Positions 5,328 through 24,284 of a stretch of 33,770 nucleotides of DNA are shown here, in pieces. The stretch comes from Paracoccaceae bacterium (GTDB lineage Bacteria > Pseudomonadota > Alphaproteobacteria > Rhodobacterales > Rhodobacteraceae), in the NCBI GenBank assembly GCA_036735505.1, contig DAINOF010000001.1, positions 4,559 to 38,328 of the forward strand. The letters are read 5' to 3'. The notes beneath the pieces are model-generated. The model was given only the letters and a program-made list of their open reading frames with translations. It had not been told where the DNA came from and did not search any database. Numbering within the stretch: position 1 is the stretch's first letter; every line of letters begins with the position of its first letter. Both the position numbers and the translations under genes were made by a program.

Positions 5328-5753
5328 ATGAAGGAACTTGGGCAAATCTTCGAGGTCGAGGGGCGATACGAGTTTCGCTACGCCGACCTCAACCTCATCG
5401 TCCGCGGCGATCATCCCGAATGGGTGCTTCAGGCCGCCAGCGAGGTGCTGGGCAAGACGGCCCGCCTCGAGACCGAGAGCAAGATCGACGAGCTGTGTTC
5501 ACTCGTCGAGTTCGAGGCCGCGACCGAAACCGAGGTCGACGCTGCCAAATACGCTCTCAAGGAACGCTTCGAGATCATCCCCCAGTGCATCGTGAGCATG
5601 GGCCGGATGGACTACCGCTGGGCCGCGGAAGAAGCGCGCAGGAAACTGGACCCGGAGTTCGGCAACCAGCCGATCAAGAGAATCCACGACATGTCGCTGA
5701 CCATGAACGACTCGTTCCTCGCGAACGAGCCCGGTGTCGACCTTTCCGAATAA
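5328..5753 (+). CDS. hypothetical protein (141 aa) immediately upstream of pyp
   Basis: AAAGGAG at 5312-5318, then ATG at 5328 (MKELGQIFEVEGRYEFRYADLNLIVRGDHPEW...). No family recognised. It ends 30 nt before pyp on the same strand. Confidence 0.65.
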   Translation: MKELGQIFEVEGRYEFRYADLNLIVRGDHPEWVLQAASEVLGKTARLETESKIDELCSLVEFEAATETEVDAAKYALKERFEIIPQCIVSMGRMDYRWAAEEARRKLDPEFGNQPIKRIHDMSLTMNDSFLANEPGVDLSE

Positions 5754-5783
5754 GCTCCCACTCCAGCCATCAAGGACCATACG

Positions 5784-6158
5784 ATGGAAATCATTCCCTT
5801 CGGCAGCCAGGACGTCGACAACATCCTGAGCCGTGAACCCCAGCGCGCCGAGTACCTTCCGTTCGGGGCCGTGCTTCTCGATCGGCAGGGCACGATCGTC
5901 AAGTACAACAAGGCCGAGAGCGTCATCGCCAACCGCAACCCGGCGGATGTCATCGGGAAGAACTTCTTCAACGAGATCGCGCCCTGCGCGAAGGGCAAGC
6001 GGTTCCACGGCGAATTCCTCAAGTTCCACCAGACGGGCCAGATCAACGTGATGTTCGACTACCGCTTCGCCTACAAGGGCGCGGATGTGGGCGTGCGGAT
6101 CCACCTGAAGTCCCAGCCCGACGGCCAGTTCTGCTGGCTCTTCGTCAAGCGCGCCTGA
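5784..6158 (+). CDS. pyp: photoactive yellow protein (PAS-fold xanthopsin photoreceptor)
   Basis: The 124-aa product aligns along its full length with the Halorhodospira PYP sequence as I remember it (MEHVAFGSEDIENTL...QYNAAEGDITGRDP..VIGKNFFKDVAPC...WVFVKRV). Here: MEIIPFGSQDVDNIL...KYNKAESVIANRNPADVIGKNFFNEIAPCAKG...CWLFVKRA. The chromophore Cys codon TGC is at 5985-5987. Equivalents of Tyr42, Glu46 and Arg52 are present. Confidence 0.95.
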   Translation: MEIIPFGSQDVDNILSREPQRAEYLPFGAVLLDRQGTIVKYNKAESVIANRNPADVIGKNFFNEIAPCAKGKRFHGEFLKFHQTGQINVMFDYRFAYKGADVGVRIHLKSQPDGQFCWLFVKRA

Positions 6159-6174
6159 GGCGGGACAGCAGGCG

Positions 6175-6753
6175 ATGCAGGGCGCGGTGGCCCCCGACCA
6201 CGTGGTCACGGTCTCGGCCGAATTGCGGCACCTGCTGTCGCTCGCCGGCCTGCCGCGCAAGCCCCGCCCGGGCTCCGGACCCGACGAGGGCCCCGGCGCC
6301 GCGCCGGCCGCCGGCGACCAGACCGGGGAGTGCCCGGGCGCGGCGTCGGGTCCGCCGCGGGTCGATGTCCTGCTCCGGCGCGACGGCGGCAGGCCACTGA
6401 AACTCCGGGGCATCCTCCTCGTCGACGCAGGCGCGGAGGGGCCCTGGGGGAGCTCACGCCTGCGCGTCTTCCTTGCCGACGACGGGCGCGCCGTCGCACA
6501 GATCGCCTATCTTCCCGACGAGACGCTGCCCGCGCGCCCGGTCTTCCGCGTCGCGAGGATCGGATCGGCCGAGGACCTGCACCGTTTCGTCGCCGAGACC
6601 GAACCCGCTCTGTGCTTCGCGGCGAGCTTCCTTCTGCCCGATGACCCTGCACGACACGCAACCAAGGACCGCCTGGCCCTGCCCGACTTTCTTCCCGGGC
6701 TCATGCGGCTCCGGCGAACCTCTCCTCCCTCACGCGAAGGACTGCATCCATGA
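6175..6753 (+). CDS. hypothetical protein, paralog 2 of the LRRxGxxPxxFxG family, with a low-complexity N-terminal extension
   Basis: The core VDVLLRRDGGRPLKLRGILL...RLRVFLADDGRAVAQIAY...AEDLHRFVAET matches the other two paralogs. The N-terminal ~60 aa is Pro/Gly/Ala-rich, so the true start is uncertain. Its stop overlaps the next start (ATGA at 6750-6753). Confidence 0.5.
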   Translation: MQGAVAPDHVVTVSAELRHLLSLAGLPRKPRPGSGPDEGPGAAPAAGDQTGECPGAASGPPRVDVLLRRDGGRPLKLRGILLVDAGAEGPWGSSRLRVFLADDGRAVAQIAYLPDETLPARPVFRVARIGSAEDLHRFVAETEPALCFAASFLLPDDPARHATKDRLALPDFLPGLMRLRRTSPPSREGLHP

Positions 6754-7238
6754 CCCCGACCCTCACGATGACCGACGGCTATTCCCGCACGGCGGACATG
6801 CCGAGTCTCGGCAGCGGCACCACCCACCGGATCCGGCGTCAGGGCGCGCGGCCGCTCGCCTTCACCGGCACGGAGCTGGCGATGGCGATGAGCTTCACGC
6901 CGACGCTGCCCTACTGGTACGAGATCACGATCTACCGCACCAACACCCAGGCCTTCGTGCTCGCCATCCGACTCTTCCATGTCTCGGAGGACGAGAAGGA
7001 CCAGTCGGATGCCTGGACGTTCGACACTCTTCCGGAGGTGCTCGACGCGATTGAGACCTATGATGCGGGTCGCGACGTCGTCGCGGACATTGTCAGCCTT
7101 CCCTCGGACGCGCCTGCAATCGAGCTTGCCGCACGGGCGATGGATCTGCGCGCCCGCGTCAGCGCCGCGCGCCACCATTTCGCCGGCCTGGTCGGCGAGC
7201 TTTTCGCCGAGCTCGACATCGCCGCAGAGGCCGCGTGA
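6750..7238 (+). CDS. hypothetical protein, paralog 3 of the LRRxGxxPxxFxG family
   Basis: HRIRRQGARPLAFTGTEL, YEITIYRTNTQAFVLAIR, VLDAIETY and IELAARAMDLRARV align block by block with ORF 3484..3960. Coupled on both sides: ATGA at 6750 and GTGA at 7235. Confidence 0.65.
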   Translation: MTPTLTMTDGYSRTADMPSLGSGTTHRIRRQGARPLAFTGTELAMAMSFTPTLPYWYEITIYRTNTQAFVLAIRLFHVSEDEKDQSDAWTFDTLPEVLDAIETYDAGRDVVADIVSLPSDAPAIELAARAMDLRARVSAARHHFAGLVGELFAELDIAAEAA

Positions 7239-8497
7239 CTACTCGGACGGACGCACCCCTGTCGGCTCCGGGCGACCTCGCGCCCGGCGCCTTCCTTTCG
7301 CCGGCGTCCGTCCGCCGCATCTGCATCGACCTGATCGGGGCCGAACAGGACCGGATGATCCGGGACAGGCGGCTCCAGGAGCGTCATCACATCGCGCGGC
7401 GGCTTCACGCTCCCGCGTCGAATGACGCCGACCTCGAGATCGGCGAGGAAGCGCTGGGCCTCGACAGCCTCGCGCGGCTCGACCTCGTCGGCTCGGTAAG
7501 CCGGTTCTTTTGCCTCGCCGACACCGGCGCGGAGGACCTCCTCCTCGTCCATCGCGGGCTGCGCGACTGGGTCCGGATCGTTTCGGCGCATCTCGACCGG
7601 GTCGGGGCGACCGCGCGGATCGGCTTCGAGACGTCAGGCAGCACCGGCACCCCAAAGAGGATCGTTCATGCCGGCCGTGACCTTGACGCCGAAGTGGCGG
7701 AGGGCCTGGGGGTCGTCCTCGGCCACTCGGCGAAAGGAGCGCGGTTCCTCATCGCCGTCCCGCCAAGGCACATCTACGGCTTTCTCTGGGGCACACTGCT
7801 GCCCGATCGGGCAGAGGGCGCTGTGATCGACCTGCAGCACTCGGTGGGAGAAGCCCTGTTCCGGCACTGCCGCCCCGGCGACGTGGTCATCGGCACACCC
7901 TTCACGTGGGAACGTGCCGCCCGTCGGGGACAGACCCTCCCGCGAAGCGTGACGGGCCTGTGTTCGGCCGGACCGTCCACCCCCGCGACATGGGAGGCAG
8001 CGGACCGCCTGGGCCTCGACAGGTTCGTCGAGATCTACGGCTCGACCGAGACGGGCGGCGTCGGCTGGCGGCAGCGGCCGGACGAGCCGTTCCGTCTCTC
8101 GGCGCGGCTCGACCGTCACGGCGCGGGACTTCGGCGGCGATCGGACGGTGTCGAGCTTGCCTTGCAGGACCGCCTCGACTGGCGTGGAAACGACAGCTTC
8201 GACCTTGCGGGACGGCGCGACGACGTGGTGCAGGTCGCCGGCACCAACGTGAGTATCGGCCGTGTCGCCCTGCTCCTCGGCGGTGTGGACGGTGTCGCCG
8301 AAGCTGCGGTGCGTCTCGACGGGGAGCGACTGAAGGCCCTGATCGTCCCTGAGGATACGGGCGCGGGGACCGAAGACCTCGAAGTGGCGCTGCGCGACCG
8401 CGCCGCGCGCAACCTCGACGCGCCGGCGCGCCCGGATCGGTATTCCTTCGCCGCCGCCATGCCACGGAACGCCATGGGAAAACTCGCCGACTGGTAA
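7235..8497 (+). CDS. pcl: p-hydroxycinnamate (p-coumarate):CoA ligase, short adenylate-forming enzyme
   Basis: AMP-binding motifs FETSGSTGTPKRIVHAGRD and YGSTETGGVGWR, plus a C-terminal MPRNAMGKLADW. About 420 aa with no extra domains. Lies in the pyp operon, as in Rhodobacter pyp loci. Confidence 0.8.
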   Translation: MTTRTDAPLSAPGDLAPGAFLSPASVRRICIDLIGAEQDRMIRDRRLQERHHIARRLHAPASNDADLEIGEEALGLDSLARLDLVGSVSRFFCLADTGAEDLLLVHRGLRDWVRIVSAHLDRVGATARIGFETSGSTGTPKRIVHAGRDLDAEVAEGLGVVLGHSAKGARFLIAVPPRHIYGFLWGTLLPDRAEGAVIDLQHSVGEALFRHCRPGDVVIGTPFTWERAARRGQTLPRSVTGLCSAGPSTPATWEAADRLGLDRFVEIYGSTETGGVGWRQRPDEPFRLSARLDRHGAGLRRRSDGVELALQDRLDWRGNDSFDLAGRRDDVVQVAGTNVSIGRVALLLGGVDGVAEAAVRLDGERLKALIVPEDTGAGTEDLEVALRDRAARNLDAPARPDRYSFAAAMPRNAMGKLADW

Positions 8498-8499
8498 GT

Positions 8500-8521: not shown

Positions 8522-8707
8522 GACCCGGGCGCGCTTCCTCCAACGCTGACATCCGGTCGCGCCATCGCCAGCCCGATCCGCGGCCGGGGAAGGAGCCAAG
8601 CGCAACCTCCTCGCGTCGGACGGGCTGACCGCCAAGCTTTCGGGGCGTGCCACGAAATGCATCCTTAAGGGACTGGCTTTAGTGTCCGCCCCGCCGCCGA
8701 AGGGAGA

Positions 8708-11527
8708 ATGACGATGACAGCAAAGACAGTGCCGGACCCATCGCCCGAGGAAAGGCTGTCGCGTGTCGCTGCCGCGTTTGCCCAGCACGCCCTCGCAAGA
8801 TCGCTCACGCTCGTGTTCGACGCGGCGACGAAGTCTCTCTGGCACGCCAGCGGTGATGCGATCACGCTGCTGGAACTGTCGGAGGACATGCTGTCCGCCG
8901 CGGGCTTCCTCGACCTGTGCGGCGCCTCGGACCAGGACATCGCCGACATCTGGTGGGCGCTCGCGGCCGGGGGGAGCGCCGAATGGTCGGGCCACCTGAC
9001 CGCCAGCCTCTCGTCGACGCGGACGCCCGCGCGATTCGAGGCCGTCTTCGCGGCGACCGGAGAGGGCGAGGGAAGCGTCGTCGTCGTCGCCCGGAAACTG
9101 CATGCCGAGCAGGGGGCGCTCGCAGCGACCATGACGGCGGCAGGCCCATGGACCGCGCTGCAGGAGGTCGTCGGCGTCATAGAATACGACACGGACGGCA
9201 ACGTGCTCAGCGCAAACGACCGAGCCGCCATGGCGCTCGAATATGTCGACGAGCTCGCGGGGCGCAACCACGAGGCGCTCTGGCCGCAATCGCGCACGGC
9301 GACGCCCGACTACATCGAATTCTGGGAGAAGCTGCGGCAGGGCCGGATCGTCGAGGGACGGCACCCGCACCGGTCGGCGGAGGGCGGGGAGCTCTGGTTC
9401 CAGTCGACTTTCGTTCCCGTCCGCGGCGAAGACGGCAGGGTCGCCCGGGTCGTGCAGTGCCTCATGGACGTCACCGAGGAGGCCGGCAGGGCCGCGCGCG
9501 ACCGGATTCTGCTCGACGCCGTCTATGGCGGTCTTCCAGTTCTCGAATACGACCTCGAAGGGCATGTCGTCTCGGCCAACGCGGCGATGCTCGATGCGCT
9601 CGGCGAGACGGCAGAAGAGGTCGGCGGCAAGCACAGCCGGCGCCTGCTGGACGCGGAGTTCGCGCGCATGCCGCGCTTCATCGAGGCGTGGAACATCGCG
9701 CTCGAGGGCGTCGCGCAGATCATCGACATCCACCACCTGCGCAAGAACCGCGTCTCGCTGTGGACCCGAAGCGCTCTCCTTCCGCTGAAGGACCCTGCCG
9801 GCGCGGTGCAGCGGGTGATGGAGATCGCCGTCGACATCCACGGCCTGCAGGAGCGACTGACCAACCTCGAGATGCTCTACGGTGCCGCCAACGCCGCACT
9901 TCCCATCCTCGAGATCGACCTGTCGGGAAAGATCCTGTCGGCGAATGACGCCGCCTGCAGCCTGTTCGACGTCAAGTCGTCCGCCCTCGCCGCCGTCAAC
10001 TTCCGGACACTCGTGCCGAGCGACTTCGGCAGCTCGAAGAAGTACCAGACCTTCTTCGACCGCCTCGCGCGGGGAGAGACGATTTCGGGCGCCTTCAAGC
10101 GGATCAGGCCCGACGGTCAGGTCATCTGGGTGCGCGGACATCATGTCCCGCTCGTCGCCGAGGGGCAGGAGGTTCCGCAGCGCATCCTCGTGCTGATGAC
10201 AGACATCACCGGGGAAAGCGTCAGCCTCGTCGAGGCAGAGGGCAAGTTCGCCGCGATCGAACAGTCCCTGGCGCTCGCCCAGTTCGACATCGACGGGACC
10301 GTGGACTGGACCAACAGGAAGCTCGAGGACGCGCTCGGCCACAGCGCGCTGGACCTGAAGGGGCGCGCGATCGCGAGCCTCCTGCCGCCGGATGACGTCG
10401 ATCGGAACCGCACCCGGTGGGAAACGCTGCGAAACGGCGAGTCCGTCGATATGGACATGCGACTCATCGGCAAGCAGGGCAATGACGTCTGGCTGAACGG
10501 GACCTTCAACCCCGTGCTCGACGACGGCAAGGTGGTGCGCATCATCGCCGTCGCGTCGGTCGTTACCGAGCGGAAGCTGCGCGTACACGACCTCGAGGCG
10601 AACTGGGCAGCTGCAACGCAGGCGGTCCCGCTGGCGGAGTTCGACCCGGACGGCCGCATCGTCTCGGCGAGCGAGGGCTTCCTGCGGATGGTCGGCTACT
10701 CCCTGCGGGAGATCGTGGGCCAGCACCACAGCATGTTCTGTTCGGCCGATCACGTGCGCTCGGCCGACTATCGCGACTTCTGGCTGTCGCTGGGCAAGGG
10801 CGAGGCGCGGAGCGGACGCTTCAGCAACGTCGGCCGGTTCGACCGCGACATCCACATCGATGGGAGCTATGTCCCGATCCGCGGGACCTCGGGCGACGTC
10901 ACCAAGGTCCTGATGTTCGGCCACGAGGTGTCCGATCACGTCGGCCTGCGGCAACTGGCCGTCGACACGGTCGAGCATGTGCGGGAGGCGGTGCAGGAGG
11001 TGCTTCAGGCGCACGCGAGGCTGCGCAGCGCCGCGACCGAAGTCGCCTCGAGCCTCGAGGGCGAGCGCAGCGCCATAGAGACGGGCTCCACGGCGCTGGC
11101 CGGGGGTGTGGCCGAGATCGATGCCGTGGCCGGCGCGGTGGACAGCGTGGCCCGGGTCACAGAGGTCCTGCGCGACATCGCCATCCAGACGAACCTGCTC
11201 GCCTTCAACGCCGCCATCGAGGCGGCGCGGGCCGGCGAACACGGCATCGGCTTCTCGGTCGTCGCCGACGACGTCCGGAAACTCGCCGAGAACAACTCCG
11301 AGGCCGCGCGCGACATCTCGCGGCATCTGCAGACCGTGGCGCAGGGTCTGGCGCGTACGCGCGACGCGGCCAGCAGGACGCTGGGGATGGTGGGCGACGT
11401 GGCTTCCGATCTCGATGTCCAGACCGAACGGGTCTCGGGTCTCGCCGACACCTCCGATGTCCACGTCAAGGCGGCCGATGCGATTGCGAAGGCCATCGAC
11501 AGGCTCCGCACCGCGGCCGTCGCGTGA
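8708..11527 (+). CDS. soluble multi-PAS (about six PAS/PAC repeats) methyl-accepting chemotaxis protein
   Basis: No hydrophobic TM segment is visible. PAS-like units recur, each starting with a pattern such as [56 protein letters not shown] or [14 protein letters not shown]. The C-terminus carries the MCP hairpin-tip signature [38 protein letters not shown]. The start may be ATG 8714, which has better spacing from GGGAG at 8702-8706. Confidence 0.85.
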
Positions 11528-12939
11528 TGCCGGCCGAAACCCGGACGAAAGTGCGGCTGGGGCTGATGACGACCGGCGGCATCACCGTCGGGGTGGACGT
11601 GACTTGCGTCGCCGAGGTGTGCCGGGTCCGGAGCATCTCGCCGATCTTTGCCGCCGCCCCCGGTCTTCTCGGGGCCATCGATCTGCGCGGGGATCCCATC
11701 CCGCTCTTCGATCCAAAGGCGCTCGCGGGGCTCGGGCAGTCAGGCTCCTCCCCCGACCTGGCGGTGATCGCCTCCGGAGAGGGGCGTCGCATCGCGCTTG
11801 GCTTCGACACGATCGAAGGGCTGACCGAGGTCGGCACGAACCGGCTCGCGGCCGCGAGGGGTGTCGGCGGATCGGCTTTCGCAGGCACGCTCGAGGATCG
11901 CGGCCGCATCGTCAGCCTTCTCGATCCCCGCCCGATCCTCGCCCGCACGGACATCCCGTCCGCGACCGTGGCGACCGCCAGCGAAACGCGAGGCGCCGTC
12001 GGCGCGACTTCCCACCTGACGGTGGAGTCGGGCAGCGCGCGCTTCGGCATCGTGGCGACGGCCATCGAAGCCACCGTCCCGCGCCAGACGATCGAACCGC
12101 ACAGCCTCGCGAACGGCGCCTGGCTCGGGATCATCGGCCATTATGGCCGGAGGGTCCCGGTCATGCATCTGAACGCGGTTCTCGGACTGGGCGAGATCCG
12201 CGATCTCGGCACCGCCGAGATCGTGATCCTGCGGCTCCCCGGCGACCGGCTCATCGGCTTCGCCGTCGAGATGATCTGCCGCATGGAGCTTGTCCCCCTC
12301 GCCGGGGAGGCCCCCTTGCCCGCGCTGCTGGCCGGGCGGACGGCAGCGATCCGCTCGGTCCTGCCGGACGGGTCGGGAGGCGATACATTCCTCGTCGACG
12401 TCGACGCCCTCGGCGCGGACGAGGCGCTGCTGGGGATCGCGAGCCTCTCCGTCGAACCCGCCGCGGCGACCTCTGCGGGGACGCGCGCCGCCGCGGCCGA
12501 GGAGGGCGCGCGTTCCGAACGCGAGCGGTATCTCGTCGCGCGGGCGGGGGCGCCCATCGCGATCCCGATCTGCCAGGTCGCGCGGATCGCCAAGCCTCCA
12601 GAACGCGTCACGGCCTTGCCGAGGGCGCCGGACTGGGTCCGCGGGGTGTTTCGCGAGGCAGGCGCCCCCGGCCCCCTCGTCGACCTGCGGCATCGCCTCG
12701 GTTATCCGCCGGCCGAGGCCATGGAGCGGTCGCGCGTCCTGATCGCCGGGTCGGCATCCTCGCCGATCGGCTTCATCGTGGAGGGTGTCGATCACCTCGA
12801 ATGGTCGGACTGGCGGTCCGACGGCCGGCAGGAGGGCATGATCAACGGCGTGGTGTCCCTGCCACGCCTCGGCGCGCAAAGCGTGATGCCCCTCGTCGAC
12901 CTGACCCGCATCGCGGCGACGCTTGAAGGGCTTGCGTGA
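11524..12939 (+). CDS. triple CheW-domain scaffold protein
   Basis: Three CheW-like units: [17 protein letters not shown]...[18 protein letters not shown]; [17 protein letters not shown]...[18 protein letters not shown]; and [21 protein letters not shown]...[20 protein letters not shown]. The start overlaps the MCP stop (GTGATG at 11524-11529). Confidence 0.8.
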
Positions 12940-13010
12940 CGCATCGGGGTTAACGGTCCTGCAACCCGAACGGGCGTAGGACTGCAGTATCGACAGAAAG
13001 GCGATCCCCC

Positions 13011-13940
13011 TTGAACCAGCCCGCGCTCGACGTTGCGAAACTCGCGGCGGCCACGATCGGCCCCGAACGGCCCTGGATCGGCCTCGCGACCGGCCGATCC
13101 TTCTTCATGGACGACGACATCCGCAGGATTGCGGAAAAGGCCGCCTTCTACGCGCGCGCCGGAGCGAGCGTGCATTTCCGCGGGATGGCGGGATCGGGCA
13201 AAACCTCGCTCGCCTTCCACGTGGCCGAGATGCTCGGCCGCCCGATCTCGTTCATCGCCGGCAACAACTGGCTGACCAGCACCGACTTCATCGGCAAGGA
13301 GATCGGCCATTCCTCGGTCTCGGTGGTGGACCGCTACGTGCAGACGGTCCGCCGGACCGAAAGCATGACCCGCGGGGAATGGAAGGAGTCCGTGCTCGCC
13401 GTCGCGATGGATCGGGGACACACCCTCATCTACGACGAGTTCACGCGCGCCTCGCCCGAAGCGAACTCGACGCTCCTGTCGGTTCTCGAGGAAGGCGTGC
13501 TGGTGGTGACGGACCAGACGAGCGAGCGCCCCTACATCAACGCCCATCCCTGCTTCCGGGTGATCCTCACGTCCAACCCCCACGACTACGTCGGCGTCAA
13601 CTCCGCTCCCGACGCCCTCATGGACCGTCTCCTGACGCTCGAACTCGGCGAACCGTCGAGCGCCACGCTCACCGGGATCGTCGCGGTCCGCAGCGGGATC
13701 GACCGTCCGACCGCCCGGCGCATCGTGAGGCTCGTGGAGGCCGCACACAAGGCGACGCCCGATACATCGCTCGGCTCGATGCGCACGGCCATCCTGATCG
13801 CGCGGATCGCGGCCTTCGCCCGCACCGAGGGCCTCCTCAGCGACGAGCTTCTGGCACAGATCGCGGCCGACGTCCTCGCCGGTCGCGGCGCCGAACTCGG
13901 GGCGGCCGCGATGGCGCGGCTCCTCGCAGCCGACACGTGA
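13011..13940 (+). CDS. gvpN: gas vesicle protein GvpN (AAA+ ATPase)
   Basis: VHFRGMAGSGKTSLAFHVAE Walker A, LIYDEFTRASPE Walker B, and overall GvpN/CbbQ-like layout. TTG start at 13011. Confidence 0.9.
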   Translation: MNQPALDVAKLAAATIGPERPWIGLATGRSFFMDDDIRRIAEKAAFYARAGASVHFRGMAGSGKTSLAFHVAEMLGRPISFIAGNNWLTSTDFIGKEIGHSSVSVVDRYVQTVRRTESMTRGEWKESVLAVAMDRGHTLIYDEFTRASPEANSTLLSVLEEGVLVVTDQTSERPYINAHPCFRVILTSNPHDYVGVNSAPDALMDRLLTLELGEPSSATLTGIVAVRSGIDRPTARRIVRLVEAAHKATPDTSLGSMRTAILIARIAAFARTEGLLSDELLAQIAADVLAGRGAELGAAAMARLLAADT

Positions 13941-13956
13941 ACCCGGGGGATCGAGC

Positions 13957-14181
13957 ATGCAGCGTCCCAAGACCTCTCCGATGCGGCGTCCCGCGGCCAT
14001 GTCCGGCAAGGCCGCGCGAACGCCGAAGGAGGCCGCCATCCATCTCGTCCGGCTCGAGTTCGACCGCAGCAGGATCCAGATCGGCCTGAGGCAGGCCGAG
14101 ATGCGGGCCGATCTCTACCGGGCCGAAGATGCCGCCATCGAGCGGCGACGGCGCGCGCTGCTCGACATCCTCACGCGCTGA
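13957..14181 (+). CDS. small basic coiled-coil protein in the gvpN-to-gvpO position (possibly GvpV-like)
   Basis: 74-aa product MQRPKTSPMRRPAAMSGKAARTPKEAAIHLVRLEFDRSRIQIGLRQAEMRADLYRAEDAAIERRRRALLDILTR. Its position after gvpN matches gvpV in other clusters. The assignment rests on position and size only. Confidence 0.4.
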   Translation: MQRPKTSPMRRPAAMSGKAARTPKEAAIHLVRLEFDRSRIQIGLRQAEMRADLYRAEDAAIERRRRALLDILTR

Positions 14182-14203
14182 CCCTCCCCAAGGAGCCACG
14201 TCC

Positions 14204-14512
14204 ATGGAACACCCGGCACCCGACGTCTTCAGCAGCAAGCGCAAGGCCGCCGGCGTCGGCCCGACCGAGGCCATCGAGGCGGCCCGGCGCGCCATCTCGG
14301 CGACCGGGCACGCCGACATCGACGCCGTCGCCGCCTGCGAGGCCGTCGAGGACGGATCCTGGCGGGTCGAGGTCGAGGTGGTGGAGAGCCACGCGAGGAT
14401 GGGCGACAACGATCTCATCGCCGCCTTCGACGTGCGCGTCGCCGAGACGGGCGAAGTCCGCGGCTTCCGCCGCCTGCGCCGCTACTTCCGGGAAGACGGG
14501 CCGCAGACATGA
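14204..14512 (+). CDS. gvpO: gas vesicle protein GvpO
   Basis: AGGAG at 14191-14195, ATG at 14204. The product ends ...WRVEVEVVESHARMGDNDLIAAFDVRVAETGEVRGFRRLRRYFRED, typical of GvpO C-termini. Confidence 0.75.
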   Translation: MEHPAPDVFSSKRKAAGVGPTEAIEAARRAISATGHADIDAVAACEAVEDGSWRVEVEVVESHARMGDNDLIAAFDVRVAETGEVRGFRRLRRYFREDGPQT

Positions 14513-14829
14513 GCTTCAGCGTGCAGAACCCGATGCACCGTGACGGCCTCGCCGACGTGCTCGAACGGATCCTCGACAAGGGGATCGTCATCGCCGGCGA
14601 CGTCTCGGTGTCGCTCGTCGGCATCGAGCTTCTGACGATCCGGCTCCGCCTGCTGATCGCGACGGTGGACAAGGCCAAGGAGCTCGGCATCAACTGGTGG
14701 GAGACCGACCCGCGCCTGACGGCCTCCGCCGATCGGCTGGCCGAGGACAACGCAGGCCTCCTGCGGCGCATCGAAGAGCTCGAGGCGCGGCTTCTGGCCT
14801 CGGACCGCGCGCAGGAGGCCGTCGGATGA
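14509..14829 (+). CDS. gvpJ: gas vesicle protein GvpJ (GvpA-family minor structural protein)
   Basis: [55 protein letters not shown] is the GvpA/J core plus the J-type extension. ATGA overlap with gvpO. Confidence 0.9.
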   Translation: MSFSVQNPMHRDGLADVLERILDKGIVIAGDVSVSLVGIELLTIRLRLLIATVDKAKELGINWWETDPRLTASADRLAEDNAGLLRRIEELEARLLASDRAQEAVG

Positions 14830-15386
14830 AGGGTCCACGAAAGCCGGCCGGCGGCGATGCGCGTGGCGACATCGACCTGAAGCTCGGCAACCTCCTTGGC
14901 GAACTCGGCTCCGCCCTGTCCGAGATGATCGACCGGCTGGACCAGGGAACCACGGGCGAGATCCGGCGCGACCGCGAGTTCACGACCGAGCGGGGTCCGG
15001 TCCGGGCCCAGGCGGGGATCCGGATCCGGCTCGCAGGGACCGAGGTGCCGCTCAAACGGAACGCTGCGGCGCCGGCAGCGACTCCCGACGCGGCCGCGCC
15101 CCCACCACGCGCCGCAACCGCGCCTGCCCCGCGCCCGATCCAGGCCGAGGTGGTCGACGACGGCCGGGTCTGGCGGCTGACGGCCGAGCTTCCCGGCGCC
15201 GCCCGGGAGGACCTCGATCTCGCCGTCGAGGAGGGACATCTCCTGATCACGGCGCGGACCCGCACCCGCAGCTTCGCCGACCGCGTCGCGCTGCCCGCCT
15301 CGACCGGGATCGCCGATCTGAGGGTGAGCCTGCAGAACGGGATCCTCGAGATCGAGGCCGCGTCACACAGGGGTCCGGACCGATGA
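14826..15386 (+). CDS. gvpH: Hsp20/alpha-crystallin domain protein (GvpH-like)
   Basis: C-terminal VWRLTAELPGAAREDLDLAVEEGHLLITARTRTRSFADRVALP...LRVSLQNGILEIE is a small-HSP fold. ATGA overlap on both sides. Confidence 0.7.
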   Translation: MKGPRKPAGGDARGDIDLKLGNLLGELGSALSEMIDRLDQGTTGEIRRDREFTTERGPVRAQAGIRIRLAGTEVPLKRNAAAPAATPDAAAPPPRAATAPAPRPIQAEVVDDGRVWRLTAELPGAAREDLDLAVEEGHLLITARTRTRSFADRVALPASTGIADLRVSLQNGILEIEAASHRGPDR

Positions 15387-16147
15387 TCTACCTCTACGGC
15401 CTCCTTGCCCCCGATTTCGACACGGACGCGACGACGCTCACCGCGCTCGAGGGCGTGACCGGGGAGGTCGCGCTCGCGAACCTCGGCCCGGCTCTTCTCG
15501 TCCATGGCCGCTGCGAGGAGACGGAGATCCTGCCGCGGCGGCGCCACCTTCTCGCCCATGCGCGCGTCCTCGAGACGCTGGCCGGGGCCGGCGCGGTGCT
15601 GCCCATGCGCTTCGGGATGATCACACCGTCCATCGAGACCGTCGCTGCGGCGCTGACGCAGCAGAAGGACGACCTCGCCGCCCAGTTTGCGGCGGTGCAG
15701 GGCTGCGCCGAATATGGCATCCGCGTCGTGTTCCCCCGCGACGCGGCGCTGCCCGCCGCCGTCGACGGCAATGCGGCGCTCGCGCGCGAGCGGTCGCGGC
15801 TTCTGGCCGCGGGGCGCGCGGGGCGCATGGAAACGGCCGAGTTCGGGCGGCAGCTTGCGGAGGTGGTCGACCGGCGCCGGGCCGCCACGCAGCGCGAGCT
15901 TGTCGCAGCCCTCGCCCCCGAATTCGCCTCCTACGTGCTGCGGGCGCCTGAGGAAGACGTGCAGGTCCTGGCGGTGGATGCGCTCGTTCCCGACAGCCGC
16001 GCGGACGGTCTCGGGGCCCGGATCGAGGCGCTGGCGCGGGCGTCGGCCTTCGCGCCCGGAGCAGAGCCGCAGGTTTCCATCGTCGGCCCGGGCCCGGCCT
16101 ACAGTTTCGTGCGGCTCACCCTGGAACTCGCGCGGCAGGCCGCCTGA
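15383..16147 (+). CDS. gas vesicle protein GvpF/GvpL family (copy 1)
   Basis: MIYLYGLL N-terminus, HARVLETLAGAGAVLPMRFGMI, and C-terminal VSIVGPGPAYSFV (variant of the GPWPPYSF motif). Confidence 0.85.
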   Translation: MIYLYGLLAPDFDTDATTLTALEGVTGEVALANLGPALLVHGRCEETEILPRRRHLLAHARVLETLAGAGAVLPMRFGMITPSIETVAAALTQQKDDLAAQFAAVQGCAEYGIRVVFPRDAALPAAVDGNAALARERSRLLAAGRAGRMETAEFGRQLAEVVDRRRAATQRELVAALAPEFASYVLRAPEEDVQVLAVDALVPDSRADGLGARIEALARASAFAPGAEPQVSIVGPGPAYSFVRLTLELARQAA

Positions 16148-16377
16148 TGGGCCTCCTGTCGCGACTCCTTCTCCTGCCGGTCTCGGCACCGCTCTCGGGG
16201 TCGCTGTGGATCGCCCAGCAGATCACCGAAAGCGTGGAGCGGGAAAGAAACAGCCCCGCGGCCCTTCGCGCCGCCCTGCGCGAGGCCGAGCTGCGCCTTA
16301 TCGCGGGCGAGCTCTCCGAAGAGGACTACGAAGTGATCGAGACCGACCTCCTCGTCCGCATGAGGGAAGCGGGATGA
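16147..16377 (+). CDS. gvpG: gas vesicle protein GvpG
   Basis: MGLLSRLLLLPVSAPLSGSLWIAQQI...LRLIAGELSEEDYEVIETDLLVRM is the typical GvpG pattern. TGATG overlap with the upstream gene. Confidence 0.8.
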   Translation: MGLLSRLLLLPVSAPLSGSLWIAQQITESVERERNSPAALRAALREAELRLIAGELSEEDYEVIETDLLVRMREAG

Positions 16378-18467
16378 CCGAGGCGGGCGTCTTCCGCATC
16401 GTGGTGGCAGGCGAGAGGTCGCGGGGCCTCGTGCGCATGGCGCGCGCCGATCTCGAAGCGCTGGCGCTGCGGTCGGGCGACACGGTCCGCATCGACGGCG
16501 CCCGAAGCACGCATGCGCGCGTGGTCGCCGGACAGGGCCCGGAGGGCACCGTCGTCATGGAGCCGCTCGTGGCCGAGAACGCGGGCCTCGGGCCCGACGG
16601 GGCGGCGCAGGTGACGCCCGCGCGCCTGCCCCGTCTGGACAGCGTGCTCCTGCGGATCGAGACCGGGCATGCCCCGGCCCCGGCGGATCTTTCGGACGCC
16701 CTCTTCGACATGACCCTCACGCAGGGCGACCGGATCCGGCTCGTCCTGCCTGGCGGCCGCGCCGCCGAGGCGTCGGTCGTCGCGGCGGCCCCGCCCGGCG
16801 GCGGCCTGTTCGGCGAGGGCTCCGTCGTGACGCTCGAGGCCGCACCGGCGACGGCGCCCGCCTTCGACGGCGTGGGCGGCCTTCAGGAGCAGATCGCGCG
16901 TGTCGAGGAGATGATCAGCACCCCGTTGCTCCGGCCCGAACTCTACGAGCGGCTCGGGATCTCGCCGCCGCGCGGCATCCTGTTCTGCGGCCCGCCCGGA
17001 TCGGGCAAGACGCTTCTCGCCCGTGCCGTCGCGCGCCGCACCGAGGCAGCGTTCTTCCACATCGACGGCCCCGAAATCATCTCGAAGCACTACGGCGACA
17101 GCGAAGAGGCGCTGCGCCGCGTCTTTGACGCCGCTGTAAAGCGCGCGCCCTCCATCGTCTTCATCGACGAACTCGACGCCATCGCGCCGCGCCGCGACGC
17201 GCTGTCGAGCGAAAAACAGGTCGAGCGCCGCGTCGTGGCGCAGCTCCTGACCCTTCTCGACGGGATCGAGGACCGGGGCCGGGTGGTGGTCATGGCTGCC
17301 ACGAACCTGCCCGACAGCCTCGATCCGGCGCTCCGCCGTCCGGGCCGGTTCGACCGCGAGATCGTGTTCCGCCCGCCGACGGAGGCGCAGCGGCGCGACA
17401 TCCTGCGCATTCAGCTCGACCGCGCACCGCTCGACGCCGATGCCGATCTCGACTCGGTTGCGGCCGCGACGCATGGCTACGTCGGCGCCGATCTCGCCGC
17501 CCTGGCGCGGGAGGCAGCGGTGGCGGCGCTCACCCGCACCGTCGCCGAGGCGGGCGGCGAAGACCGCGTGCGGCTCGAGGACCTGAGGATCACCCGTGCA
17601 GACCTGGCGCGGGGGCTCGCGGCGACCGGGCCCAGCGCGCTGCGCGGCGCGACGCAGGATGCGGTTCCGGTGACCTGGGACGACGTGGCCGGCGCGGATG
17701 CGGCGCGCGAGGCGCTGCAGCAGGCGGTGATCTGGCCCCAGCGGCATCCTGCCCTCCTCGCCGCACTCGGCGTCCGCCCGGCGCGGGGCGTGCTGCTCGC
17801 CGGCCCGCCCGGCTGCGGCAAGACGCTCGCGGCACGCGCCCTCGCAACCGAGAGCCGGATGAACTTCCTTCACGTGCGCCCGCCGACCCTCCTGTCGCGA
17901 TATCTGGGCGAGGCCGAGCGCGCGGTCGCCGAGCTCTTCGAGCGCGCCCGCGCCACGGCGCCGGCGCTCATCTTCTTCGACGAGTTCGACGCGCTGGCGC
18001 CGCGTCGCACCGGGCGCGACCCCACGCTCGACCGCATCGTCGCGCAGCTCCTGACCGAGTTCGACGGCCTTGCCGGTCACCCCGGCGTCGTGGTCCTCGC
18101 CGCGACGAACCGACCCGCCGCGATCGACCAGGCCCTGACCCGGCCGGGCCGGTTCGATGTCGTCGTCCGGTTCGCCCTTCCCGACGCGGCCGCGCGGCAG
18201 GCGATCCTTGCCGCGCATCTGAAGGGCCGCGCGGCGAGTGCGGACGTCGACACCGCTGTGCTCGCCGCGGCGACGCCGGACTTCTCGGGCGCCGATCTCG
18301 CGGCGCTTGTCGACGAGGCCGCGCGCGGGGCTCTCGCCAGCGCGCTCGCCGGCGGCGCGGGCGAGATCCGATCGCTCGGCCGGGACGATCTCGAGGCCGC
18401 GCTGCGCCGGATGCTCGAGGGGCGCGCGGTGCGCCGGGACGACTACATAGCGGAGGTCACCGAATGA
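16374..18467 (+). CDS. Cdc48/p97-like tandem AAA+ ATPase (N-domain, D1, D2)
   Basis: N-terminal substrate-domain-like VFRIVVAGERSRGLVRMARADLEALALRSGDTVRIDG. D1 has GPPGSGKTLLARAVA and IVFIDELDA. D2 has GPPGCGKTLAARALA and LIFFDEFDA. RPGRFD arginine-finger regions are present in both. ATGA overlaps with gvpG (16374) and the next gvpF/L (18464). Confidence 0.9.
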   Translation: MTEAGVFRIVVAGERSRGLVRMARADLEALALRSGDTVRIDGARSTHARVVAGQGPEGTVVMEPLVAENAGLGPDGAAQVTPARLPRLDSVLLRIETGHAPAPADLSDALFDMTLTQGDRIRLVLPGGRAAEASVVAAAPPGGGLFGEGSVVTLEAAPATAPAFDGVGGLQEQIARVEEMISTPLLRPELYERLGISPPRGILFCGPPGSGKTLLARAVARRTEAAFFHIDGPEIISKHYGDSEEALRRVFDAAVKRAPSIVFIDELDAIAPRRDALSSEKQVERRVVAQLLTLLDGIEDRGRVVVMAATNLPDSLDPALRRPGRFDREIVFRPPTEAQRRDILRIQLDRAPLDADADLDSVAAATHGYVGADLAALAREAAVAALTRTVAEAGGEDRVRLEDLRITRADLARGLAATGPSALRGATQDAVPVTWDDVAGADAAREALQQAVIWPQRHPALLAALGVRPARGVLLAGPPGCGKTLAARALATESRMNFLHVRPPTLLSRYLGEAERAVAELFERARATAPALIFFDEFDALAPRRTGRDPTLDRIVAQLLTEFDGLAGHPGVVVLAATNRPAAIDQALTRPGRFDVVVRFALPDAAARQAILAAHLKGRAASADVDTAVLAAATPDFSGADLAALVDEAARGALASALAGGAGEIRSLGRDDLEAALRRMLEGRAVRRDDYIAEVTE

Positions 18468-19366
18468 TGCGGCGCGAACTCGTGGCCATCCTTCCCGGCG
18501 AGGGTCCGCCGACCCCTCCCGAGGGATGCACCGTCGTCCGCGCGGCGAAACATGCCGCGGTGCTTCGGTGGAGCGGTCTCCTGCCGGCACCACGCAAGGC
18601 CGACGCACTGCGCGCCGCGGCGGCACGGGCGCGCATTCTCGAGACGCTGATGACCTCGGGCACGGTGCTGCCGGTCCTGCCCGGCCAGCGCATCCGCGCG
18701 TCGGAGGCCGAGCGGCTCGTGACGGCGAACCTTCCCGTGCTCGAACGACTGGCGTCCCAGTTCGCAGGACGCCGGCAGTTCCAGATCACGCTGCGCTGGG
18801 ACGTGACGCGGGCCGTCGCCCGGTTCGGCGCTTCGGAGGGCGCGGCGGCCGCAGACGCCGCGGGTCCAGCCATCGCCGCGCGCCTGCGGGAGCGCGTGGC
18901 GCAGGCGCTCGAGGACACCGGTGCCGAGGTGATGATGCTCCCCGTGGCCGAAGATGTGGTGGCCAACGCGGTCGTGCTTGTCGACGCGGCGTCGGAACCG
19001 CTGCTCGACGCGGCGCTCGCCGAGATCGACGGTCTGTGGACCGAGGGGTTCCGCATCAGGATGATCGGCCCCTATCCGCCGGTCAGCTTCGCCTCGCTCG
19101 TCTTCGACCGGATGGACCGGCGTCAGATCGAGGAGGCGCAGGCGGCCTTCGGCCTCGACCCTGGCTTCTCCGAAACCGCGCTGCGGCAGGCCCGGCGCGA
19201 GGTCATCATGCAGGCGGGGGCGGACCGGCACGAGGCGCTGCGCCGGCAGGCCGACCTGCTCGCCTGCGTGGCACGGCTTGGAGGGGCCTGCGCCCGGGTC
19301 CACGTCGCCCGCGTCTGGAGCGAAGGACTGTCCTCGGCCACGGCCGCCCGGGCGCGCGCAGCATGA
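18464..19366 (+). CDS. gas vesicle protein GvpF/GvpL family (copy 2)
   Basis: RILETLMTSGTVLPVLPG, FRIRMIGPYPPVSFA, and length and layout typical of GvpL. Confidence 0.75.
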   Translation: MMRRELVAILPGEGPPTPPEGCTVVRAAKHAAVLRWSGLLPAPRKADALRAAAARARILETLMTSGTVLPVLPGQRIRASEAERLVTANLPVLERLASQFAGRRQFQITLRWDVTRAVARFGASEGAAAADAAGPAIAARLRERVAQALEDTGAEVMMLPVAEDVVANAVVLVDAASEPLLDAALAEIDGLWTEGFRIRMIGPYPPVSFASLVFDRMDRRQIEEAQAAFGLDPGFSETALRQARREVIMQAGADRHEALRRQADLLACVARLGGACARVHVARVWSEGLSSATAARARAA

Positions 19367-21248: not shown

Positions 21249-21306
21249 GCGCGGGAAAGGTGGCGGTAACCTTTGTTGCCTTACGGTCCGACGTGGAGGT
21301 TGCGAC

Positions 21307-24190: not shown

Positions 24191-24284
24191 GTTGCACTCC
24201 CGCTCATGAACTCCAGCTTTGCAGCCTGCCATGACTTCCTTAAGCGGGTGTTGAGGGCCGCGACCATCCCGGGCATCGGCGGCC

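What the first reader, a model, noticed from the sequence alone, without database searches (positions are those of the whole stretch)
8708..12939. Orphan cytoplasmic chemoreceptor (6xPAS-MCP) coupled to a triple-CheW protein, with no CheA/CheY/CheR/CheB, between the PYP and gvp operons
Seen in the sequence: the 939-aa MCP has no TM or HAMP-like hydrophobic segment. It has about six tandem PAS units and a short signalling hairpin of roughly 190 aa, with the canonical tip [23 protein letters not shown]. Its stop overlaps the start of a 471-aa protein made of three CheW domains. gvpN begins only 71 nt downstream. No kinase or response regulator is present anywhere in the window.
Established knowledge: MCPs normally signal through CheA bound via CheW. 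Multi-CheW-domain proteins are uncommon.
Inference, with two options: (a) the pair plugs into a distant CheA to couple light or redox sensing to motility alongside buoyancy; or (b) it is a CheA-less receptor/scaffold array repurposed for gas-vesicle regulation or organisation. Either option would be new for gas vesicles and for PYP.
Basis: partly seen in the sequence, partly recalled or inferred. Interest (0 to 1): 0.8.

Follow-up and report, generated by a model that had tools for sequence, protein, structure and literature searches.

The report
Kinase-less chemoreceptor pair heading gas-vesicle operon
A soluble six-PAS chemoreceptor and a triple-CheW scaffold protein, with no kinase nearby, form a fixed part of a conserved gene cluster for a blue-light sensor (PYP) and gas vesicles in Rhodobacter-type bacteria, which makes them the best current candidate for the link between light or redox sensing, flotation and swimming.

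Summary
Bases 8708-11527 encode a 939-aa soluble MCP: five clear PAS domains, a weak sixth at the N-terminus, and a short ~24-heptad hairpin with a canonical tip and no methylation motifs. Its stop overlaps the start of a 470/471-aa protein made of three CheW domains. gvpN follows 71 nt later. No CheA, CheY, CheR or CheB is in the window.

The pair is not a chance neighbour. In all 13 independent contexts read (CheW3 identity 84% down to 33%), MCP-CheW3 sits with gvp genes. The PYP/pCL genes or TAL are also present wherever enough flank was read. This holds even where gene order is shuffled or gvpN is lost.

More distant relatives (25-30%) fall into two groups. One is multi-PAS-MCP+CheW3 pairs without gvp, one of which lies beside cheA-cheY and flagellar genes. 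The other is the full F9 chemosensory cluster, for which triple CheW is a published hallmark.

Only the first CheW domain keeps the conserved E38-R62 salt bridge. The second and third have lost or charge-swapped it.

Most likely the pair is a plug-in cytoplasmic sensory array, co-expressed with gas vesicles and feeding a CheA encoded elsewhere (~0.45). A kinase-free role in gas-vesicle control remains open (~0.27). I rate it a new variant of a known kind.

The parts
8654..8669 (+). CtrA-like box GAAATGCATCCTTAAG, 39-54 nt upstream of the MCP start. The core CATCCTTAA(C) is conserved in orthologous upstream regions.
   Evidence: Alignment A5. It holds one of only five TTAA tetramers in the window, all of them intergenic. 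It matches TTAA-N7-TTAAC at 6 of 9 positions, which is an inference only.
8708..9142 (+). MCP N-terminal domain (aa 1-145), conserved among orthologues and weakly PAS-like.
   Evidence: Ortholog alignments. hhalign against the PAS units gives E=8.7e-4 and probability 23% over 98 columns.
9155..10963 (+). Five tandem PAS domains of the MCP (about aa 150-262, 270-380, 392-503, 512-626, 640-752).
   Evidence: Pfam PAS_4 6e-55 with 5 stretches, PAS_9 3.8e-47 with 5 stretches; TIGR00229 with 5 stretches.
10964..11527 (+). MCP signalling hairpin (aa 753-939) plus stop codon. Tip Glu844 lies at 11237-11239. It is about 24H in length, has no methylation consensus and no C-terminal pentapeptide.
   Evidence: PF00015 at 92 bits. 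Arm lengths. The tip is invariant in orthologues. The methylation-motif scan is negative in 8 orthologues and positive in a Tsr control.
11524..12939 (+). Triple-CheW protein (CheW3), start GTG 11524 or ATG 11527, translationally coupled to the MCP. D1 is about 11548-11946, D2 about 12004-12426, D3 about 12529-12924.
   Evidence: PF01584 with 3 stretches at 172 bits. The AF2 model shows three beta-rich domains joined by low-confidence linkers (pLDDT 69, pTM 0.42). Foldseek top hits are CheW and CheA-P5 (TM up to 0.81).
12950..12965 (+). Conserved TTAA-N7-(G/T/A)CAAC box (TTAACGGTCCTGCAAC) in the 71-nt CheW3-gvpN spacer.
   Evidence: TTAAC and CAAC are invariant in 7 orthologous spacers (A4). 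It matches the CtrA consensus at 7 of 9 positions.
13011..21248 (+). gvp genes in the same direction: gvpN, a 74-aa ORF, gvpO, gvpA, an HSP20-like gene, gvpF, gvpG, a CDC48-type AAA+ gene, gvpL, gvpF, gvpJ-like, gvpF-like, gvpK.
   Evidence: Pfam; tblastn with L002 proteins.
21163..22881 (+). Aromatic amino-acid ammonia-lyase (TAL candidate). The real start is probably near 21307.
   Evidence: PF00221 at 2.3e-141. Orthologues are 524 aa.
5328..8497 (+). PYP module: 141-aa unknown (5328-5753), pyp (5784-6158), 192-aa unknown (6175-6753), 162-aa unknown (6750-7238), 4-coumarate-CoA ligase (7235-8497).
   Evidence: PYP matches PDB entries at 6.5e-32. pCL scores 374.5 bits on TIGR02372, above its 334.7 cutoff. 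Synteny and identity table.
22894..24232 (-). Divergent gvpA/J-like gene (22894-23151) and a conserved 334-aa unknown (23228-24232).
   Evidence: PF00741 at 2.7e-16. Both are conserved in L004 and L029.

Best explanation
The two genes encode a self-contained, kinase-less cytoplasmic chemosensory module. One partner is a soluble receptor with a stack of PAS sensor domains fused directly to a minimal (~24-heptad) non-methylatable signalling hairpin. The other is its own dedicated baseplate protein made of three concatenated CheW domains.

The module descends from the same stock as the F9-class CheW3 and from a widespread 'multi-PAS MCP + CheW3' two-gene unit. In one lineage of Rhodobacterales it became a permanent component of a PYP / p-coumarate-synthesis / gas-vesicle supercluster. 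There it forms the first two cistrons of the gvp transcription unit, probably behind a CtrA-type promoter box.

Proposed mechanism:
- Shown: the two proteins are translationally coupled, co-evolve at the same rate, keep a canonical receptor tip, and keep one canonical CheW domain (D1).
- Inferred: they assemble a soluble receptor/CheW3 lattice when gas vesicles are made. The PAS stack reads intracellular cues (redox, O2, energy, and possibly the light state of PYP or its conserved companions). D1 couples the receptor to a CheA encoded elsewhere in the genome, so that flagellar behaviour is matched to flotation. D2 and D3, which have lost or charge-swapped the E38-R62 bridge, act mainly as lattice-building spacers.
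For: 1. Domain content and anatomy.
2. Strict synteny with gvp (plus PYP/pCL or TAL wherever enough flank was read) in 13 independent contexts, from 84% to 33% CheW3 identity. This includes a shuffled order (L031: MCP-CheW3-PYP module-gvpN) and clusters lacking gvpN (L029, L030).
3. MCP and CheW3 identities fall in parallel (58/59, 44/40, 37/33%).
4. Relatives at 25-30% are also multi-PAS-MCP + CheW3 pairs and share the same tip motif QTNLLAFNA(A/S)IEAARAG(E/A)HG(I/V)GF. One of them (Pseudaquabacterium, L008) lies between cheA-cheY and fliR/P/M/L/I. Another relative (P0024) sits in a complete F9 cluster with a DosM-like receptor and CheA/Y/B/R. The family is therefore CheA-compatible by descent.
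5. D1 keeps E38/R62 in every sequence examined.
6. Literature. CheW3 is the F9 hallmark, F9 arrays are cytoplasmic, and partial F9 sets are proposed to borrow another CheA (PMC9321776, PMC7534058). CtrA activates gas-vesicle, flagellar and chemotaxis genes in C. sphaeroides and R. capsulatus (PMC9430884, PMC11999139, PMC7232146).
7. Conserved TTAA-N7-NCAAC and CATCCTTAAC boxes lie upstream of gvpN and the MCP.
Against: - No CheA was identified for this organism, and the rest of the genome could not be searched.
- The absence of methylation sites and of CheR/CheB is unusual for a gradient-sensing taxis receptor.
- D2 has lost the E38-R62 bridge in the gvp-linked clade and in all but one (F9-linked P0024) of the relatives examined. 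D3 has lost or charge-swapped it in the gvp-linked clade. The CheA-linked F9 protein keeps it in all three domains. This fits relaxed kinase coupling.
- Such tight and ancient linkage to structural gvp genes is more than co-expression of a taxis receptor strictly needs.
- The CtrA-box reading rests on 6-7 of 9 matches, and the number of such matches in the window is not above chance (11 against 6.0 +/- 2.7).
Confidence: 0.45

Rival explanations
1. Kinase-independent lattice. The MCP and CheW3 form a CheA-free hexagonal receptor/CheW array. It acts directly on gas-vesicle biogenesis or organisation, for example as a light- or redox-responsive scaffold, nucleation or clustering platform, or by binding and sequestering a Gvp protein such as GvpN or the CDC48-like AAA+ protein.
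For: - No kinase lies within 10 kb in any of the 13 gvp-linked contexts.
- F9 arrays still form without CheA in V. cholerae (PMC7534058, PMC9321776).
- D2 and D3 have lost the bridge that couples the receptor and kinase sites (PMC3828127).
- There are no methylation sites.
- The pair is co-cistronic with structural gvp genes across deep divergence.
Against: - No precedent exists for an MCP output without CheA.
- The sister 'pair-type' modules occur with no gvp genes at all, so the ancestral function cannot be gas-vesicle specific.
- One sister pair sits with cheA-cheY and flagellar genes.
- D1 and the tip remain fully canonical.
- In V. cholerae, DosM, which is absent here, was needed for array formation.
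Confidence: 0.27
2. PYP transducer for gene or second-messenger control. The MCP/CheW3 complex is the downstream partner of PYP, or of the conserved 141-, 192- and 162-aa proteins. It regulates gvp expression or c-di-GMP level rather than motility, through an unidentified partner. One candidate is the adjacent LOV-like-PAS-GGDEF-EAL protein.
For: - The PYP module and MCP-CheW3 stay together even when their order is shuffled (L031).
- PYP and the 141-aa protein are extremely conserved (90-100% and 64-89%).
- A GGDEF-EAL protein with a LOV-like domain is adjacent.
- PYP next to sensor-less MCPs is reported in Leptospira, and MCP-PYP fusions exist (PMC9664959, PMC12826048).
Against: - L004/L005 keep MCP-CheW3-gvp-TAL with no pyp in the 7 kb read upstream.
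- The MCP has its own large PAS stack, so it does not need an external sensor.
- No mechanism connects a receptor/CheW lattice to transcription or to a GGDEF-EAL enzyme without a kinase.
- Conservation of the GGDEF-EAL gene could not be checked.
Confidence: 0.15
3. Ordinary chemotaxis accessory genes that lie beside the gvp cluster by chance.
For: Orphan MCP and CheW genes are common in bacterial genomes. Distant homologues occur away from gvp.
Against: All 13 independent contexts of the subfamily read keep the linkage to gvp genes, across 33-84% identity and despite rearrangements. Intergenic gaps are short (32-84 nt) and carry a conserved box.
Confidence: 0.03

Closest known systems
F9-class chemosensory system (Vibrio cholerae cluster I: CheW3 VC1402, DosM VC1403, CheA1; candidate 24H two-PAS soluble receptors VC1406 and VCA0864)
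   Same: - A concatenated triple-CheW protein that aligns colinearly, domain by domain, with an F9-cluster CheW3.
- A soluble PAS-bearing receptor with a very short (~24H) hairpin.
- The F9 system builds a cytoplasmic array. CheA is dispensable for its assembly (PMC7534058).
   Different: - No DosM double-tip receptor and no CheA, CheY, CheB or CheR in the locus.
- Only about 25% identity to the F9 CheW3.
- D2 and D3 lack the E38-R62 pair that the F9 protein keeps in all three domains.
- Six PAS domains instead of two.
- Embedded in a gvp operon.
Partial F9 gene sets (dosM + cheW3 +/- cheBR without cheA/cheY; Nitratiruptor, Nautilia, some alpha-proteobacteria; PMC9321776)
   Same: CheW3 without a cognate kinase in the cluster. 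The published proposal is that such sets borrow a CheA from another class.
   Different: Those sets are defined by DosM and usually keep CheB/CheR. Here the receptor has a single tip and is sensory (PAS-rich), there are no adaptation enzymes, and the set is tied to gas vesicles and PYP.
Stand-alone multi-PAS-MCP + CheW3 pairs (Sphaerotilus spp., Pseudaquabacterium inlustre, Acidimicrobiales MAG; found here)
   Same: - Same two-gene architecture.
- Same tip motif.
- Same degenerate D2.
- MCP identity of 31-35% over about 760 aa.
   Different: - No gvp or pyp nearby, and variable neighbours.
- One is next to cheA-cheY and flagellar genes.
- D3 keeps canonical E38/R62, whereas the gvp-linked clade has R38/D62.
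PYP-gas vesicle cluster of Rhodobacter capsulatus SB1003 and Loktanella sp. SE-62 (Kyndt et al. 2004, as cited in PMC3646047)
   Same: pyp with its chromophore genes lies beside a gvp cluster in Rhodobacterales. The proposal that PYP relates to buoyancy already exists.
   Different: I could not read the 2004 paper. None of the accessible papers, including the 2022 and 2025 surveys of pyp neighbourhoods (PMC9664959, PMC12826048), mentions an MCP/CheW3 pair in this cluster or mentions gas vesicles at all.
CetA/CetB (Campylobacter) and Leptospira PYP + sensor-less MCP
   Same: A stand-alone PAS protein is encoded near an MCP that is thought to relay its signal (PMC9664959).
   Different: Those MCPs are membrane-bound, lack their own sensor domains, and signal to a known CheA. 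Here the MCP is soluble and carries 5-6 PAS domains of its own.

Membership tests
Methyl-accepting chemotaxis protein (PF00015), cytoplasmic class | MCP signalling domain above the Pfam gathering score, with the conserved hairpin tip | tested here: met
   92 bits against a 34.6 cutoff. The tip [23 protein letters not shown] is invariant in 8 orthologues.
Methyl-accepting chemotaxis protein (PF00015), cytoplasmic class | No transmembrane segment | tested here: met
   Maximum 19-residue hydropathy is 1.23.
Methyl-accepting chemotaxis protein (PF00015), cytoplasmic class | Methylation (adaptation) sites | tested here: not met
   No [ASTG]xx[EQ][EQ]xx[ASTG][ASTG] site in any of 8 orthologues, while the Tsr control is positive. 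There is no NWETF-like tail.
24H heptad class of MCP signalling domains | 12 heptads (84 aa) per arm around the tip | tested here: inconclusive
   The arm lengths of about 90 and 95 aa fit 24H. The class-specific HMMs were not available.
CheW.III / CheW3 architecture | Three PF01584 domains and no other domain | tested here: met
   Three stretches at 172 bits. The AF2 model shows three beta domains. Foldseek hits are CheW and P5.
F9 chemosensory class | CheW3 present | tested here: met
   It aligns colinearly with the CheW3 of an F9 cluster (L021).
F9 chemosensory class | DosM receptor with two signalling domains | tested here: not met
   The DosM-like protein of L021 hits the window only at the single MCP tip. 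No second MCP is present in the window.
F9 chemosensory class | Cognate CheA/CheY (and CheB/CheR) in the cluster | tested here: not met
   Pfam on the ORFs and tblastn are negative. None is found in 13 related loci.
Canonical CheW coupling domain | E38-R62 salt bridge (E. coli numbering; PMC3828127) | tested here: inconclusive
   Met in D1 (18/18). Not met in D2 (A38 with H or Y at 62). In D3 the pair is charge-swapped or lost: R38 in 18/18, D62 in 12/18, and A62 in the window itself.
Photoactive yellow protein with chromophore genes | PYP fold with Cys69, plus pCL and TAL nearby | tested here: met
   PDB PYP match at E=6.5e-32 with the APC motif aligned. TIGR02372 scores above its cutoff. PF00221 is present.
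CtrA regulon | CtrA box TTAA-N7-TTAAC, or a TTAAC half-site, in the promoter | tested here: inconclusive
   7/9 match at 12950 and 6/9 at 8654, both conserved in orthologous regions. The count of such boxes in the window is not above shuffles. There are no expression data for this organism.

The most novel reading that the evidence does not exclude
The MCP-CheW3 pair builds a CheA-free receptor lattice that is the long-sought downstream partner of PYP. This lattice directly controls gas-vesicle formation or arrangement in response to blue light or redox state. That would be a chemoreceptor array repurposed as an organelle regulator with no phosphorelay.
Probability: 0.25. Interest if true: 0.85.

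Novelty: new variant of a known kind. Interest (0 to 1): 0.62.

Why it matters
The signalling partner of PYP has been unknown for decades. The function of F9-type CheW3 arrays is also unknown. How non-cyanobacterial phototrophs tune buoyancy is poorly understood.

This locus ties all three together in one conserved gene set. The set is small enough to delete, express and image. The kinase-less pair can be tested directly: does it recruit a distant CheA, or does it act without one?

A widespread 'multi-PAS MCP + CheW3' two-gene module also emerges as a distinct, uncharacterised branch of chemosensory systems. It comprises at least about 240 protein clusters at 50% identity, and its second CheW domain is degenerate.

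Tried and rejected
- The genome contigs and metagenome contigs pattern scans with the CheW3 alignment returned almost only distant (26-30%) relatives. Among the gvp-linked loci they found only L015, the VFQR01000024.1 contig already held as L002. Contexts therefore had to come from exact-protein look-ups, and these are now exhausted.
- tblastn of CheW3 against plasmids found no match.
- The window's own genome could not be searched for CheA. The exact CheW3 with the GTG start is not on record. The ATG form lies on a 38-kb NCBI contig and a 3.4-kb Logan contig only.
- The sigma-70 promoter and terminator scan of 5200-14600 gave counts at chance level.
- A sigma-54 reading of the gvpN-upstream box was considered and rejected: the GG-GC spacing is off by one, and GG is not conserved in L002.
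- Rfam (gathering threshold) and tRNA scans of the window found nothing.
- The unknown proteins next to pyp (141, 192 and 162 aa) have no Pfam family and no NCBIfam hit above cutoff (the 162-aa protein has only a weak sub-threshold EXLDI match, E=0.0028), and no significant PDB-profile hit.
Single-sequence AF2 of the 141-aa protein was unusable (pLDDT 44.6).
- AF2 of CheW3 gave no confident inter-domain geometry (pTM 0.42), so a 'half-ring' arrangement could be neither supported nor rejected.
- Cofactor prediction for the PAS domains from motifs was judged unreliable and dropped.
- Four papers are not held and could not be read: Kyndt 2004, Mercer 2010, Hernandez-Valle 2020 and Briegel 2016. 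Whether any of them already notes the MCP/CheW genes in the cluster remains unchecked.


Full report
**1. What is in the sequence**

The window has about 70% G+C. ORF 8708-11527 encodes 939 aa. Pfam gives five significant PAS stretches (PAS_4 6e-55, PAS_9 3.8e-47) and an MCP signalling domain at residues 790-933 (92 bits against a 34.6 cutoff). NCBIfam agrees. The first 145 residues are conserved among orthologues. They resemble the PAS units only weakly: hhalign gives E=8.7e-4 and probability 23%.

No segment is hydrophobic enough for a membrane helix; the maximum 19-residue hydropathy is 1.23. The hairpin tip Glu is residue 844. The C-arm has 95 residues and the N-arm about 90, so the length fits the shortest (24-heptad) receptor class. 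None of eight orthologues has a methylation consensus site, whereas a Tsr control gives three. There is no C-terminal tether motif.

The next ORF overlaps the MCP stop. Its start is GTG 11524 or ATG 11527; the public call uses the ATG, giving 470 aa. It contains three CheW domains and nothing else. The AlphaFold2 model shows three beta-rich domains joined by low-confidence linkers (residues 147-158 and 310-333; pLDDT 69, pTM 0.42). The best PDB fold matches are CheW and CheA-P5, with TM-score up to 0.81.

gvpN starts 71 nt downstream.

**2. The surroundings**

Gene order on the + strand:
- 141-aa unknown
- pyp
- 192-aa unknown
- 162-aa unknown
- 4-coumarate-CoA ligase (TIGR02372, above cutoff)
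- MCP
- CheW3
- gvpN
- 74-aa ORF
- gvpO
- gvpA
- HSP20-like
- gvpF
- gvpG
- CDC48-type AAA+
- gvpL
- gvpF
- gvpJ-like
- gvpF-like
- gvpK
- aromatic ammonia-lyase (TAL)

On the - strand there follow a gvpA/J-like gene, a 334-aa unknown, and a LOV-like-PAS-GGDEF-EAL protein.

PYP matches solved PYP structures at E=6.5e-32 with the chromophore Cys aligned.

No CheA, CheY, CheB or CheR is present. Pfam on all sizeable ORFs is negative. tblastn with the che proteins of an F9 cluster is also negative.

**3. Is the neighbourhood accidental? No.**

Close CheW3 homologues (54-84% identity) are few. Every context that could be read has multi-PAS MCP, then CheW3, then gvp genes:
- L001, L002/L003, L004/L005 and L006
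- L019 and L020
- L023, L024 and L025

An exhaustive HMMER search showed the family is much larger: 241 clusters at 50% identity reach E<=1e-30. I therefore followed the next-nearest members.
- At 40-42% identity (L029, L030) the order is PYP module, MCP, CheW3, gvp, but without gvpN.
- At 33% identity (L031) the order is shuffled to MCP, CheW3, 144-aa ORF, pyp, two unknowns, pCL, gvpN, gvpO, gvpA and onward.

Association that survives both gene loss and reordering is strong evidence for a shared function. MCP and CheW3 identities to the window fall in step (58/59, 44/40, 37/33%). PYP stays at 90-100%.

Spacers between CheW3 and the next gene are 32-84 nt in the loci that have gvpN. They carry a conserved TTAAC-N7-CAAC box. 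A second conserved box, CATCCTTAA(C), lies about 45 nt upstream of the MCP. The pair therefore heads the gvp transcription unit, possibly with an internal second promoter.

**4. Wider relatives**

At 25-30% identity two other contexts appear.

(i) Multi-PAS MCP + CheW3 pairs with no gvp genes. These occur in Sphaerotilus species, Pseudaquabacterium, an Acidimicrobiales MAG and several other MAGs. Their MCPs align with the window MCP over about 760 residues at 31-35% identity. At least two of them share the tip QTNLLAFNA(A/S)IEAARAG(E/A)HG(I/V)GF. Flanking genes are unrelated in most. In Pseudaquabacterium inlustre, however, the pair lies between a divergent cheA-cheY (Hpt, dimerisation, HATPase and CheW domains) and fliR, fliP, fliM, fliL and fliI.

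(ii) A CheW3 (P0024) inside a complete F9-type cluster: CheY, a 640-aa protein with two signalling tips (DosM-like), CheW3, CheB, a HEAT protein, CheR, CheY and CheA.

The literature says the following. Concatenated triple CheW plus DosM are unique hallmarks of the F9 class. In V. cholerae they build a two-layered cytoplasmic array that still forms without CheA. 'Partial F9' sets lacking CheA/CheY exist in 8 of 2781 genomes and are thought to use another CheA (PMC9321776, PMC7534058). CheW.III proteins number about 1-3% as many as single-domain CheW proteins, and their individual domains are untested experimentally (bioRxiv 10.1101/2022.05.07.491035).

**5. Domain-level signature**

All CheW3 proteins align colinearly, D1 with D1, D2 with D2 and D3 with D3. 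I examined the E38-R62 pair (E. coli numbering). This pair holds the receptor-binding and kinase-binding faces of CheW in register (PMC3828127).

| Group | D1 | D2 | D3 |
|---|---|---|---|
| F9-cluster protein | E/R | E/R | E/R |
| Stand-alone pairs | E/R | degenerate | E/R |
| gvp/PYP-linked clade | E/R | A38 with H62 (Y in the window) | R38 with D62 in 12 of 18 (window: R38, E61, A62) |

Source.

The subfamily is thus recognisable by sequence. Only D1 looks like a fully canonical coupler.

**6. Regulation lead**

Only five TTAA tetramers occur in 33.8 kb, and all five are intergenic. Sequences matching the CtrA box TTAA-N7-TTAAC at 7 or more of 9 positions lie at:
- 3429
- 5234
- 12950
- 23173
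- 24240
- 26472

The MCP-upstream site matches at 6 of 9. The number of such matches is not above shuffled sequence (11 against 6.0 +/- 2.7). The argument therefore rests on position and on conservation in orthologous spacers.

Published work shows that CtrA activates gas-vesicle genes (including a gvpN reporter), flagellar genes and chemoreceptor genes in C. sphaeroides and R. capsulatus (PMC9430884, PMC11999139, PMC7232146, PMC4158056). Co-regulation of this module with motility is therefore plausible but unproven.

**7. Interpretation**

By descent the pair belongs to a CheA-compatible lineage: one relative sits in an F9 cluster and one sister pair sits beside cheA-cheY. It keeps a canonical tip and a canonical D1. 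The widespread stand-alone sister pairs cannot have a gas-vesicle-specific output.

The most economical reading is a plug-in cytoplasmic sensory array. It brings its own scaffold, is made together with gas vesicles, and reports PAS-sensed cues to a CheA encoded elsewhere, so that swimming suits a floating cell (confidence about 0.45).

Four points count against this reading and in favour of a kinase-free role at the gas vesicle (about 0.27):
- the absence of any adaptation sites
- the decay of the bridge in D2 and D3
- the total absence of a kinase in 13 contexts
- the unusually tight and ancient linkage to structural gvp genes

A third reading has the complex as the PYP transducer acting on gvp expression or c-di-GMP (about 0.15). 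A chance neighbourhood is excluded (about 0.03).

**8. Novelty**

Already known: triple CheW as the F9 hallmark, partial F9 sets, soluble PAS receptors with 24H hairpins, the PYP-gvp neighbourhood in R. capsulatus and Loktanella (PMC3646047, citing Kyndt 2004), and CtrA control of gvp.

Not found in any accessible paper:
- that a six-PAS 24H MCP plus CheW3 pair is a fixed component of the PYP/gvp supercluster. Two recent surveys of pyp neighbourhoods never mention gas vesicles or CheW (PMC9664959, PMC12826048).
- that a large family of multi-PAS-MCP + CheW3 pairs with a degenerate D2 exists apart from F9.

Four key subscription papers could not be read. Prior mention of the two genes in a figure or table therefore cannot be excluded.

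Verdict: a new variant of a known kind, moderately to highly interesting, and directly testable.

Noticed in passing
window 5328-5753 (+): A 141-aa protein sits directly upstream of pyp. It is 64-89% identical across loci in which CheW3 is only 33-60% identical. It has no Pfam or NCBIfam family and no significant PDB-profile hit. It always travels with pyp and is a candidate direct partner of PYP.
   Followed up: partly
window 6175-6753 and 6750-7238 (+): Two conserved unknown proteins lie between pyp and pcl. They share an RR(D)GARPL-x-(F/L)-x-G motif and are probably paralogues. The 162-aa one is 58-70% identical across loci.
   Followed up: partly
window 5784-6158 (+) and 5001-6000: PYP is 90-100% identical across clusters whose other proteins are 30-75% identical. 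It falls in one 90% cluster with the PYPs of Cereibacter sphaeroides, Roseivivax isoporae and Roseicyclus. The pyp region has G+C 0.61 against about 0.70 around it. This points either to extreme constraint or to recent lateral spread of the cassette.
   Followed up: no
window 24285-26423 (-): A LOV-like PAS domain (YtvA-family match, 108 bits) is followed by PAS, GGDEF and EAL domains. In the LOV-like domain the adduct-forming Cys is replaced by Pro (KSPRMLQG). It is a second possible light or redox sensor with c-di-GMP output beside the gvp cluster. Its conservation in other loci could not be checked.
   Followed up: partly
window 3429, 8665, 12950, 24240, 26483: Only five TTAA tetramers occur in 33.8 kb, and all are in intergenic regions at the heads of transcription units. 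Several fit the CtrA box TTAA-N7-TTAAC at 7-8 of 9 positions.
   Followed up: partly
L029 5062-7542; L030 6896-9101: In the 40-42% identity branch, the gvp cluster following CheW3 has no gvpN. The 74-aa ORF, gvpO and gvpA follow directly.
   Followed up: no
L024 6214-9239: In one cluster the MCP is only 563 aa, having lost its N-terminal PAS domains. A 391-aa ORF on the opposite strand is inserted just upstream. This is a possible insertion-truncated variant.
   Followed up: no
L008 1349-21331 (Pseudaquabacterium inlustre): A seven-PAS MCP + CheW3 pair is flanked by cheA-cheY, a receiver-HisKA_3 hybrid kinase, an HDOD protein, and fliR, fliP, fliM, fliL and fliI. It is a natural system in which to test whether this kind of pair signals through CheA.
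   Followed up: partly
window 16374-18467 (+): A CDC48-type double-AAA+ ATPase (TIGR01243, 600 bits, below its 802 cutoff) is embedded in the gvp operon. It is conserved in most related clusters and truncated or split in L004 and L020.
   Followed up: no
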